Part shown: positions 1 through 680 of the stretch, piece by piece
Layout of the letters: each line of letters opens with the position of its first letter
Position numbering within the stretch: position 1 is the first letter of the stretch
Made by a program: the position numbers and the translations under genes
The notes under the pieces: generated by a model
The model's input: the letters and a program-made list of their open reading frames with translations, nothing else
Database searches by the model: none
Told to the model about the DNA's origin: nothing
Assembly: GCF_003334385.1 (NCBI RefSeq)
Contig: NZ_QOWN01000151.1
From: Escherichia coli
Lineage (GTDB): Bacteria; Pseudomonadota; Gammaproteobacteria; Enterobacterales; Enterobacteriaceae
Direction: 5' to 3' (one strand)
DNA: 680 nt

Positions 1-680
1 CTGAAACGTATTTTGCCTGGTAACGGGCGTCATCAAGTGCATTATGGCGCTCACCTTCGAATGGAATAGCCGTTCTGGCATCGAAGTCTATGGCTTTCCC
101 CAGCTCAACGATTGTGCGTACATCGCGATCGTTGTAGTAACGCCACGGGCAGGGGATCCCCTGCCGTTCGTATGAACGGCGCAAAATCGTGTTGTCGAAG
201 TTGGCTCCATTTCCCCAAACCTGAACAAAAAATTCACCGGAGTTTTCGTCGATAAATTCCCGCAATTGTAACAGTGCATCATCTAACGGGATTTCATCGG
301 TCATAATGGCAGATTGCGCTTCGCGTGATTGCTTAAGCCACCATTTAATGGTGTCCCGATCAATGACTCCGCCAGCAGTTTCCAGATCGATAGTCTTACT
401 AAATTCCGGTCCCATATCTCCGGTTTGCGGATCGAAAAATATTGCACCTATTGAGATGATCGGGGCATCAGGATTTTTTCCCATGGTTTCAAGGTCGATC
501 ATTAGATGGTCACACGTCCTGCTGGTGGATGTGATTTCTTGATGACCGTTCACCTTAATTGAGTGATCTGCCGTCTCGCCAGTTTCATTATCGCTATCGT
601 GATGCTGATTGCCGCCAGTGTTCTCCTTGTGTGGATGTTCAGCGCCTTCCATTTCCTCCGGATCATCTTCCTGAACTTCA
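1..680 (-). CDS. Internal fragment (no start or stop in window) of a DnaQ-like DEDDh 3'-5' exonuclease domain protein, preceded by an acidic His-rich linker; possibly part of a prophage RecE/exodeoxyribonuclease VIII-like multi-domain nuclease
   Basis: Seen in sequence: the minus-strand frame with codons 302-304, 299-301 etc. has no stop codon from 679 to 2 (about 226 codons), against roughly 10 stops expected by chance. Translation contains Exo I LMIDLETMG followed by a hydrophobic strand PIISIGAIFFD, Exo II VWGNGANFDNTIL, and Exo III ERHNALDDARYQAKYV, matching the order and spacing of DEDDh exonucleases. The RecE-like attribution is from recalled domain architectures and is unverified. Confidence 0.85.
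2..508 (-). other. DEDDh 3'-5' exonuclease catalytic domain, truncated at its C-terminal side by the window edge
   Basis: Predicted catalytic residues: Exo I Asp at 494-496 and Glu at 488-490 (IDLET); Exo II Asp at 194-196 (ANFD); Exo III His at 44-46 and Asp at 29-31 (HNALDD). A His in Exo III defines the DEDDh rather than the DEDDy subgroup. Motif I to II spacing is about 100 residues and II to III about 50, typical for the fold. Confidence 0.75.
148..165. repeat. Perfect 18-bp palindrome ggcaggggatcccctgcc, centred on GGATCC/GATC, inside the coding sequence
   Basis: Seen in sequence: positions 148-165 equal their own reverse complement; symmetry breaks at 147/166. It encodes RQGIPCPW in the main minus-strand frame. 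It can be read as a 7-bp GC-rich stem (ggcaggg/ccctgcc) with a gatc loop. Confidence 0.9.
521..679 (-). other. Acidic, His-rich low-complexity segment, probably a disordered inter-domain linker N-terminal to the exonuclease domain
   Basis: Translation EVQEDDPEEMEGAEHPHKENTGGNQHHDSDNETGETADHSIKVNGHQEITSTSRT is dominated by E, D, H, G, T and N, has no hydrophobic core pattern, and is in frame and continuous with the exonuclease domain. Confidence 0.6.

What the first reader, a model, noticed from the sequence alone, without database searches (positions are those of the whole stretch)
2..679. A 3'-5' exonuclease domain embedded in a larger protein behind an acidic His-rich linker
The frame is open at both edges, so sequence lies N-terminal to the linker (beyond 680) and C-terminal to Exo III (beyond 1). 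Most DEDDh exonucleases are small stand-alone proteins; an internal domain following a 50+ residue E/D/H-rich linker suggests a multi-domain phage or prophage nuclease. One candidate is a RecE/exodeoxyribonuclease VIII-like protein, which would imply a neighbouring RecT-like annealing gene. What the flanking domains are decides whether this is a routine prophage recombination gene or something less usual, such as a defence-associated nuclease fusion.
Basis: partly seen in the sequence, partly recalled or inferred. Interest (0 to 1): 0.45.

Follow-up and report, generated by a model that had tools for sequence, protein, structure and literature searches.

The report
Prophage RecE-like protein with 3'-5' exonuclease head
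The window encodes the C-terminal 3'-5' exonuclease domain of a very common, already catalogued E. coli prophage protein that keeps RecE's non-catalytic front part but carries a different nuclease and has no RecT partner; its function has never been tested.

Summary
The minus strand is one open frame (226 codons) encoding an intact DEDDh (Rv2179c-like, PF16473, E=1e-66) exonuclease domain behind a 58-residue acidic, His-rich tether.

The window is 100% identical to an annotated 823-aa "exonuclease" gene of ompW-integrated lambdoid prophages. It covers aa 584-810, and the stop codon lies 13 codons beyond the window. The gene order is dicF-dicB-ydfD-exo-xis-int. K-12 ydfE is an IS2-truncated copy. 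The gene is present at ≥80% length in 3533 of 5426 complete E. coli genomes.

The "linker" is not anonymous. With about 300 upstream residues (including a Cys4 zinc-ribbon motif) it is homologous to the non-catalytic part of Rac RecE (~88% DNA identity near the junction). Homology stops at window position ~562, where RecE's PD-(D/E)xK nuclease would begin.

So this is a RecE scaffold carrying a nuclease head of a different fold, predicted to have the opposite polarity. No RecT or other annealase gene is nearby, and there is no defence-system match. The DEDDh domain is under strong purifying selection (dN/dS 0.11). The scaffold matches no solved fold.

A role in DNA 3'-end processing is inferred, not shown. 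The gene is catalogued but uncharacterised, and of modest interest.

The parts
2..679 (-). Open reading frame fragment. It corresponds to aa 584-810 of an 823-aa prophage 'exonuclease' (WP_113344110.1 in E. coli 118UI). The gene continues 1751 nt upstream (beyond window position 680) and 41 nt downstream (beyond position 1).
562..679 (-). Acidic, His-rich tether (aa ~585-623). This is the last part of the segment homologous to Rac RecE (RecE ~553-591), with ~88% DNA identity to K-12 recE. It is predicted to be a flexible linker.
   Evidence: BLASTP, DNA alignment A1, composition. dN/dS is 1.4, with unusually low dS of 0.10.
560..565 (-). Mosaic junction. Identity to recE collapses after '...GGCAGATC' (aa ~623, 'ETAD|HSIK').
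509..561 (-). Short unique connector (aa ~624-641, HSIKVNGHQEITSTSRTC) between the RecE-like tether and the exonuclease domain.
   Evidence: The stand-alone homologues start right after it.
1..508 (-). DEDDh 3'-5' exonuclease domain of the Rv2179c-like family (PF16473; Pfam envelope aa 642-813). The last residues lie beyond window position 1.
   Evidence: PHROG 255 at 8e-79. PDB 8KEL at 1.5e-6. dN/dS 0.11.
485..502 (-). Exo I motif MIDLET (catalytic D646 and E648).
   Evidence: invariant
194..217 (-). Exo II motif WGNGANFD (catalytic D746).
   Evidence: invariant
29..46 (-). Exo III motif HNALDD (H796 ... D801), the 'h' variant of the DEDD family.
   Evidence: invariant
521..528 (+). Chi octamer GCTGGTGG on the strand antisense to the gene, about 35 nt from the mosaic junction. 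A side observation; no role is demonstrated.
   Evidence: The same site is present in the phage mEp460_ev081 copy.

Best explanation
**What it is (shown).** The window is the 3' part of a lambdoid-prophage early-left-operon gene, in the order dicF-dicB-ydfD-[this gene]-xis-int. The 823-aa product is a mosaic of five pieces:
- An N-terminal YdfE-type module (aa 1-257).
- A helical middle module (aa 258-~345).
- A small beta-hairpin unit (aa ~388-432).
- A Cys4 zinc-ribbon motif plus acidic tether (aa ~452-623). The middle module and this segment are shared with Rac RecE.
- A complete DEDDh (DnaQ-fold, Rv2179c/DexA-like) exonuclease at the position where RecE carries its PD-(D/E)xK 5'-3' nuclease.

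The catalytic residues are intact and under strong purifying selection. No annealase gene accompanies it.

**How it probably works (inferred).** After prophage induction or infection, the protein is made from the leftward early transcript. The RecE-type scaffold would bring the flexibly tethered head to the same place RecE's scaffold brings its nuclease, presumably DNA ends. The head would then remove nucleotides from 3' ends, which is the opposite polarity to RecE.

Phages carrying this gene lack a Rec module and are Chi-rich. The most likely role is therefore trimming or blunting 3' tails so that host pathways (RecBCD/Chi, RecA) can process phage or broken DNA. It is unlikely to generate 3' tails for a phage annealase. 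The substrate (DNA versus RNA) and the partner of the scaffold are untested.
For: **Identity and context**
- 100% match to annotated genes; gene order and attachment site.
- DicF lies upstream.
- K-12 ydfE is the truncated copy.

**Domain**
- PF16473 at 1e-66 to 3e-67.
- DEDDh residues invariant.
- dN/dS 0.106 for the domain against 1.44 for the tether.

**RecE scaffold homology and sharp junction**
-.
- A second breakpoint at aa ~452.

**Modularity**
- Family members carry either DEDDh or RecE-type heads on the same scaffold.
- Stand-alone homologues begin exactly at the start of the domain.

**Recombination link**
- In Salmonella phage g341c the 56%-identical stand-alone gene sits between ssb and abc2, next to erf.
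- PMC12315714 lists DnaQ-like nucleases as lambdoid Rec-module members, and separately notes DnaQ-type nuclease genes near int.

**No annealase, Chi-rich carrier**
-.
- mEp460_ev081 has 9 Chi sites against 1.5 expected.

**Transcription**
- No excess of promoter-like or terminator-like sites around the gene.
Against: - No biochemical or genetic data exist for this protein.
- The founding member of the Pfam family, Rv2179c, is reported as an exoribonuclease acting on 3' overhangs of dsRNA, so an RNA substrate is not excluded.
- The stand-alone homologue sat beside annealase/SSB genes in only 1 of 5 phage contexts sampled. In Enc34, SAP012, YuA and 1720a-02 all neighbours are of unknown function.
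- PMC12315714 explicitly declines to count int-proximal DnaQ-type genes as Rec-module members.
Confidence: 0.6

Rival explanations
1. It is an RNA-directed enzyme. The DEDDh head would be a 3'-5' exoribonuclease like Rv2179c or RNase T, trimming or degrading RNA 3' ends during the lytic programme. Candidate substrates are phage or host transcripts, or sRNAs such as DicF, which is encoded in the same operon.
For: The best Pfam family is named for the Rv2179c exoribonuclease, and its reported activity is on 3' overhangs of dsRNA. A weaker RNase_T PF00929 match is present. DicF lies about 650 nt upstream in the same transcription direction. Many records label the homologues '3'-5' exoribonuclease'.
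Against: The only solved-structure relatives found by sequence are deposited as 'exodeoxyribonuclease' (8KEL/8KEN), and dexA genes of T4-like phages match the same segment. The head replaces a DNA nuclease on a RecE scaffold. A close stand-alone homologue sits inside a DNA recombination module. The 'exoribonuclease' labels are inherited from the Pfam name and were not tested.
Confidence: 0.2
2. It is a counter-defence enzyme. The exonuclease would destroy a host immune molecule, such as nucleotide or oligonucleotide second messengers or retron msDNA, or would protect phage DNA indirectly.
For: It is an early-expressed phage gene that is widespread in phages both as a stand-alone form and as fusions (754 phage records). 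The neighbours of the stand-alone forms are often small early genes of unknown function, and YuA carries an 'anti-restriction protein' about 2.3 kb downstream of the exonuclease gene.
Against: No direct evidence. The RecE-type scaffold and the Rec-module placement in g341c point to DNA transactions. No literature links the family to anti-defence.
Confidence: 0.1
3. It is a prophage-encoded defence or superinfection-exclusion nuclease that attacks incoming foreign DNA.
For: It is carried by most E. coli genomes, often in several copies. Neighbouring prophage genes include known host-affecting functions (dicB, hokD).
Against: There is no PADLOC match. The gene lies in the repressed leftward early operon between dicB/ydfD and xis/int, with no promoter of its own detected, so it should be silent in a lysogen. 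The same gene is present in free phage genomes.
Confidence: 0.05
4. It is a decaying, non-functional remnant of a recE gene in cryptic prophages.
For: K-12 carries only an IS2-truncated pseudogene (ydfE). Some genomes carry partial or IS-interrupted copies (H83, H93-H98).
Against: The ORF is intact and 823 aa long in copies only 82.5% identical at the protein level, with dN/dS of 0.11 in the nuclease and 0.13 in N1. The catalytic residues are invariant. Full-length copies occur in 3533 genomes and in viable phages.
Confidence: 0.03

Closest known systems
RecE (exonuclease VIII) of the Rac prophage, E. coli K-12
   Same: - Homologous over aa 262-625 to RecE 278-591: 39% identity overall and near-identical from 'SRGEFV' through the CxxC...CxxC motif to the acidic His-rich tether (~88% DNA identity).
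- Same position class, the leftward early operon near xis/int of a lambdoid prophage.
- A variant of this protein (813 aa) also shares RecE's first ~280 residues at 71% identity.
   Different: - It lacks RecE's PD-(D/E)xK 5'-3' nuclease domain and carries a DEDDh domain instead.
- It scores far below the NCBIfam exoVIII cut-off (274 bits against 1269).
- No recT follows it.
- The first 257 residues of the 823-aa form are unrelated to RecE.
- The frequent annotation 'exodeoxyribonuclease VIII' is therefore misleading.
Rv2179c-like / phage DexA-like DEDDh exonucleases (PF16473; PHROG 255; PDB 8KEL)
   Same: - Full-length match to PF16473 (E=1e-66) with all DEDDh residues.
- PHROG 255 at 8e-79.
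- PDB 8KEL 'exodeoxyribonuclease' at 1.5e-6 over aa 643-776; 8KEL is cited as the PHROG 255 structure in a 2026 preprint.
- 56-60% identity to stand-alone ~180-aa phage proteins.
   Different: - Those proteins are stand-alone (~180-230 aa). Here the domain is fused behind a 640-residue scaffold.
- Only 17 of 754 phage records that have the domain carry the long form at 80% coverage or more.
DnaQ-type nuclease genes of lambdoid phages, and 'RecE-2' proteins, as described in Genome Res 2025 (PMC12315714)
   Same: - The paper reports DnaQ-like 3'-5' nucleases in lambdoid Rec modules (for example epsilon34) and sporadic DnaQ-type nuclease genes very near int, outside any Rec module. This matches the gene's position here.
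- g341c shows the in-module form.
   Different: - In the text available to me, the paper does not describe the RecE-scaffold fusion, and it leaves the function open.
- Its 'RecE-2' proteins are said to lack a nuclease domain. They may correspond to the third head type I saw (phrog_2489/7838), not to this protein.
YdfE (b1577), Qin cryptic prophage pseudogene of E. coli K-12
   Same: Its first 257 aa are 96% identical, and the upstream genes are the same: dicF, dicB, ydfD.
   Different: The K-12 copy is cut by IS2 after about 257 codons. It therefore lacks the RecE-like middle, the tether and the exonuclease encoded in this window.

Membership tests
DEDDh (DnaQ-fold) 3'-5' exonucleases, Rv2179c-like family PF16473 | Significant full-length match to the family profile | tested here: met
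   PF16473 at E=1.3e-66 on the window fragment (model 2-174/177) and 3.4e-67 on the full protein.
DEDDh (DnaQ-fold) 3'-5' exonucleases, Rv2179c-like family PF16473 | Exo I (DxE), Exo II (D) and Exo III (H-x4-D) catalytic residues | tested here: met
   D646, E648, D746, H796 and D801 are present and invariant across six sequences at 35-60% identity.
DEDDh (DnaQ-fold) 3'-5' exonucleases, Rv2179c-like family PF16473 | Metal-dependent 3'-5' exonuclease activity, and its substrate (DNA or RNA) | not testable with these tools
   Needs enzyme assays. The literature gives RNA for Rv2179c, while PDB depositors name 8KEL an exodeoxyribonuclease.
DEDDh (DnaQ-fold) 3'-5' exonucleases, Rv2179c-like family PF16473 | DnaQ/RNase T-like three-dimensional fold | not tested
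   I used both structure-prediction jobs on the unknown parts, because the profile evidence for this domain was already decisive. There is a sequence match to the solved structure 8KEL.
RecE / exodeoxyribonuclease VIII | C-terminal PD-(D/E)xK toroidal 5'-3' nuclease domain (the crystallised construct covers RecE residues 564-866) | tested here: not met
   There is no alignment to RecE beyond residue 591. phmmer with RecE 592-866 gives no hit on this architecture. Pfam finds only the DEDDh domain.
RecE / exodeoxyribonuclease VIII | Passes the curated equivalog model (NCBIfam NF007259) | tested here: not met
   273.7 bits against a cut-off of 1269. The match covers only model positions 271-602.
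RecE / exodeoxyribonuclease VIII | Homology to the RecE N-terminal (non-catalytic) region | tested here: met
   aa 262-625 match RecE 278-591 at E=9e-61, with ~88% DNA identity in the last ~440 nt. The first 257 aa are not RecE-like in this form.
RecE / exodeoxyribonuclease VIII | Adjacent recT (annealase partner) gene | tested here: not met
   No RecT, Beta, Erf or Sak gene lies between the repressor and int in L001, L007 or the whole mEp460_ev081 genome. Rac has recT immediately downstream of recE.
Known anti-phage defence systems (PADLOC-DB v2) | Match to any defence-system protein model | tested here: not met
   0 families at E<=0.01.
PHROG 2082 'exonuclease' (phage protein family) | End-to-end match to the family profile | tested here: met
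   E=0, 1870 bits, residues 1-823 against profile positions 1-823 of 823.

The most novel reading that the evidence does not exclude
The RecE-family N-terminal scaffold would be a general, exchangeable-head platform. The same zinc-ribbon/acidic-tether core carries a 5'-3' PD-(D/E)xK nuclease (RecE), a 3'-5' DEDDh nuclease (this protein), or other heads. Heads are swapped at conserved disordered joints.

On this reading, the DEDDh-headed form is by far the commonest in E. coli. It would be an annealase-independent end-processing factor that lets lambdoid phages lacking a Rec module, which are Chi-rich, use host RecBCD/RecA.

If true, comparing the two heads on one scaffold would give an experimental handle on the long-unexplained function of the RecE N-terminal region.
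Probability: 0.2. Interest if true: 0.55.

Novelty: already known. Interest (0 to 1): 0.3.

Why it matters
This is one of the most widespread prophage genes in E. coli: full-length copies occur in about 65% of complete genomes, often several per genome. It is also routinely mislabelled "exodeoxyribonuclease VIII".

Three findings help correct the annotation. It shares RecE's scaffold but not RecE's nuclease, its head predicts the opposite polarity, and it has no annealase partner.

It also offers a natural "head-swap" comparison for asking what the uncharacterised RecE N-terminal region does. That region is known only to enhance linear-linear recombination (PMC11611040).

Finally, it adds a candidate factor to the recently recognised class of lambdoid phages that have no Rec module and depend on host RecBCD and Chi (PMC12315714). 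None of this is a new kind of system. The value lies in clarification and in a testable hypothesis.

Tried and rejected
1. **RecE proper.** Rejected: no PD-(D/E)xK domain, below the NCBIfam cut-off, no recT.
2. **Defence-system nuclease.** PADLOC is empty.
3. **Hidden annealase among small neighbouring ORFs.** PHROGs gave only regulators, excisionase and families of unknown function.
5. **Third head type as a Rad52-type annealase.** I suspected this for the phrog_7838/2489 proteins. Pfam gave only weak hits (5 of 6 members at E<=0.1, best 9e-3). A profile search of PDB sequences found nothing. The AF2 model was mediocre (pLDDT 68) and Foldseek found no Rad52. The idea is unconfirmed and I did not use it.
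6. **General Rec-module association of the stand-alone homologue.** It held in g341c. It did not hold in Enc34, SAP012, YuA or 1720a-02.
7. **Separate promoter or terminator for the gene.** No excess over shuffled sequence.
8. **Literature on function.** Searches for Rv2179c+prophage, ydfE and dicB+ydfD+exonuclease returned nothing functional. The supplementary tables of PMC12315714 were not available.
9. **Other frames in the window.** The plus-strand and other-frame ORFs (78 aa or shorter) lie inside a strongly supported gene, so I did not pursue them.

Full report
**1. The observation**

The minus strand of the window (2-679) is a single open frame of 226 codons. No other frame has an ORF longer than 78 aa.

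Pfam places a complete Rv2179c-like DEDDh exonuclease domain on residues 58-226 of the fragment (PF16473, E=1.3e-66, model positions 2-174 of 177). A much weaker RNase_T match overlaps it.

The three exonuclease motifs are all inside the window:
- MIDLET (D646/E648, window 485-502)
- WGNGANFD (D746, window 194-217)
- HNALDD (H796...D801, window 29-46)

The five catalytic residues are invariant in an alignment with five stand-alone phage homologues that are only 35-60% identical.

The stretch preceding the domain (aa 584-641) is 28% Asp/Glu and 10% His, with net charge -13.

**2. Where it comes from**

The window is 100% identical to chromosomes of many E. coli strains and 99.4-99.9% identical to several E. 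coli phages, including the "PPompW" prophages.

In strain 118UI it lies in a 2472-nt gene annotated "exonuclease" (823 aa). The window covers aa 584-810, and the stop codon is 41 nt past window position 1. The domain is therefore C-terminal, not internal, and 583 residues lie upstream.

The gene order is repressor ... DicF sRNA - dicB - DUF1482/ydfD - exonuclease - xis - int - ompW. Three further 100%-identical copies show the same arrangement. So do a divergent copy integrated at potC and phage mEp460_ev081.

E. coli K-12's Qin pseudogene ydfE is the first 257 codons of this gene (96% identity), cut by IS2.

At 80% length or more, the gene is present in 3533 of 5426 complete E. coli genomes, with up to 10 matching places per genome. 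PHROG 2082 matches it end to end. It is a catalogued gene.

**3. What the flanking parts are**

*The linker is RecE-like.* The "linker" is not anonymous sequence. BLASTP against Rac RecE aligns aa 262-625 with RecE 278-591 (E=9e-61). The match is nearly identical from "SRGEFV(E/D)[13 protein letters not shown]" through a CxxC-x8-CxxC zinc-ribbon-like motif to the acidic His-rich tether.

At the DNA level the two genes are about 88% identical over the last ~440 nt. They then diverge abruptly after "...GGCAGATC" (aa ~623, window ~562). This is where RecE continues into its nuclease domain.

*The RecE nuclease is absent.* Nothing in the protein resembles RecE 592-866. Pfam finds only the DEDDh domain. 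The NCBIfam exoVIII equivalog scores 274 bits against a cut-off of 1269.

*The first module is also exchangeable.* An 813-aa variant in phages vB_EcoS-813R8 and vB_EcoS-640R1 shares the window at 99.7-99.9% identity. Instead of the YdfE-type first 257 residues it has a RecE-type N-terminus (71% identity to RecE 50-284). Its near-identity to the 823-aa form starts at aa ~453.

*Summary of the architecture.* The protein is a mosaic with breakpoints at aa ~452 and ~623, both in low-complexity segments. The AF2 model of aa 1-450 shows residues 439-450 as disordered; the second segment lies beyond that model. The zinc-ribbon/tether core is common to RecE and both DEDDh forms.

Stand-alone homologues begin exactly where the fused domain begins (MxHLMIDLET). 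This suggests that a whole exonuclease gene was captured.

**4. The wider family**

A full HMMER search of 1.84 billion representatives with aa 1-640 found only 253 clusters, many of them fragments. Mapping modules on the long members shows combinatorial architectures:
- The N1 module is YdfE-type or RecE-type.
- The middle and zinc-ribbon/tether segments are shared.
- The head is DEDDh (7 representatives), RecE PD-(D/E)xK (12), or a third type (phrog_7838/2489; 13).
- One member has a RecT fusion, which may be an artefact.

I suspected that the third head is a Rad52-type annealase. Only weak Pfam hints support this. Neither a PDB sequence-profile search nor a moderate-confidence AF2 model searched with Foldseek confirmed it. 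I do not rely on it.

**5. Structure of the scaffold**

AF2 on aa 1-450 with a 40-sequence alignment gives a confident model (mean pLDDT 85). It contains four compact units joined by disordered linkers:
- 1-100, alpha/beta
- 105-205, helical
- 245-340, helical and RecE-shared
- 388-432, beta-hairpins plus helices

**6. Is it functional?**

I compared two intact 823-codon copies that are 82.5% identical at the protein level.

| Region | dN/dS |
|---|---|
| DEDDh domain | 0.106 |
| N1 | 0.13 |
| Middle | 0.19 |
| Zinc-ribbon segment | 0.26 |
| 58-codon tether | 1.44 |

The tether also has unusually low dS (0.10). This pattern fits a selected enzyme on a selected scaffold, joined by a composition-constrained flexible linker. 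It is a single pairwise comparison, and the tether estimate rests on few sites.

**7. Context and mechanism**

No annealase, SSB or anti-RecBCD gene lies between the repressor and int in the loci examined, nor anywhere in mEp460_ev081. PADLOC has no match. No excess of promoter-like or terminator-like sites separates the gene from dicB-ydfD or xis-int. It is therefore probably part of the repressed leftward early transcript.

A 56%-identical stand-alone homologue in Salmonella phage g341c sits inside the Rec module (erf-ssb-exo-abc2). In four other phages, however, the neighbours are all of unknown function.

PMC12315714 reports three relevant points:
- DnaQ-like nucleases occur in lambdoid Rec modules.
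- DnaQ-type nuclease genes also occur near int, outside any Rec module.
- 68 of 314 lambdoid phages have no Rec module, are Chi-rich and are proposed to rely on RecBCD.

mEp460_ev081 fits that class: 9 Chi sites against 1.5 expected, 7 of them on one strand.

My best inference has two parts. First, the RecE-type scaffold delivers a flexibly tethered 3'-5' exonuclease to DNA ends. Second, the enzyme trims 3' tails in cooperation with host recombination functions rather than with a phage annealase. An RNA substrate, as reported for Rv2179c, remains a serious rival. No experiment on this protein was found.

**8. Comparison and verdict**

By every sequence criterion tested, the window's domain is a member of the Rv2179c-like/DexA-like DEDDh family.

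The protein is not RecE, although it is homologous to RecE's non-catalytic part and is often annotated "exodeoxyribonuclease VIII".

- Supported: a multi-domain prophage nuclease related to RecE.
- Not supported: a PD-(D/E)xK domain, a RecT neighbour, or a defence-system signature.

The entity is already catalogued and extremely common, so novelty is low. What remains open is why the commonest RecE-like protein of E. coli prophages carries a nuclease of the opposite polarity and no annealase. That question is modestly interesting and directly testable.

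Noticed in passing
window 521-528 (+ strand): A Chi octamer (GCTGGTGG) lies antisense to the gene, about 35 nt from the recE/DEDDh mosaic junction, and encodes S-T-S-R in the short unique connector. The same site is present in the mEp460_ev081 copy. Shuffles expect 0.01 per window. Given E. coli's overall Chi density it is not extraordinary.
   Followed up: partly
L008 (phage mEp460_ev081, whole genome) and L001 1-24680: Chi is enriched in carriers of the gene. mEp460_ev081 has 9 sites against 1.5 expected, 7 of them on one strand. 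The 24.7-kb 118UI locus has 6 sites against 0.6 expected, 5 on one strand. Neither has an annealase or anti-RecBCD gene. This fits the 'no Rec module, Chi-rich' class of PMC12315714.
   Followed up: partly
L001 9546-9597 (+): The DicF sRNA (Rfam RF00039, 77 bits) lies upstream of dicB in the same transcription direction as the exonuclease gene.
   Followed up: no
L004 5079-5999 (E. coli K-12 Qin prophage): The K-12 pseudogene ydfE is the first 257 codons of this exonuclease gene (96% identity), truncated by IS2. K-12 therefore lacks the part seen in the window.
   Followed up: yes
proteins P0010, P0015, P0020, P0047, P0068, P0118 and others (alignment A3): A third class of scaffold proteins (phrog_2489, ~700-800 aa, labelled 'exonuclease') carries a conserved ~270-aa C-terminal domain (phrog_7838) that is neither DEDDh nor RecE-type. 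It gives weak Rad52_Rad22 hits around '...KKSLTDAxKKALSxLGF...' followed by long coiled coils. Fold search did not confirm a Rad52 fold. These may be the 'RecE-2' proteins of PMC12315714.
   Followed up: partly
protein P0090 (703 aa): A RecE-type scaffold is fused directly to a RecT-like annealase domain (Pfam RecT at 2e-42; phrog_148 at 1.5e-72). This could be a real fusion or a deletion/frameshift artefact in a recE-recT locus.
   Followed up: no
L001 11650-11960 (aa ~468-570 of the protein; upstream of the window): The most conserved piece shared by RecE, both DEDDh forms and some third-type proteins is the peptide '[20 protein letters not shown]' followed by a CxxC-x8-CxxC zinc-ribbon-like motif. 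It could be a docking element. No function is known.
   Followed up: no
window 506-679 (tether, aa 584-641), compared with L007: Synonymous divergence in the tether is much lower (dS 0.10) than in the rest of the gene (0.30-0.46), while dN/dS is above 1. This would fit repeated recombinational homogenisation of this joint between prophages. It rests on one sequence pair and 58 codons.
   Followed up: no
L001 2856-3521 (-): An epoxyqueuosine reductase QueH gene is annotated inside the prophage, between the hokD and replication-region genes.
   Followed up: no
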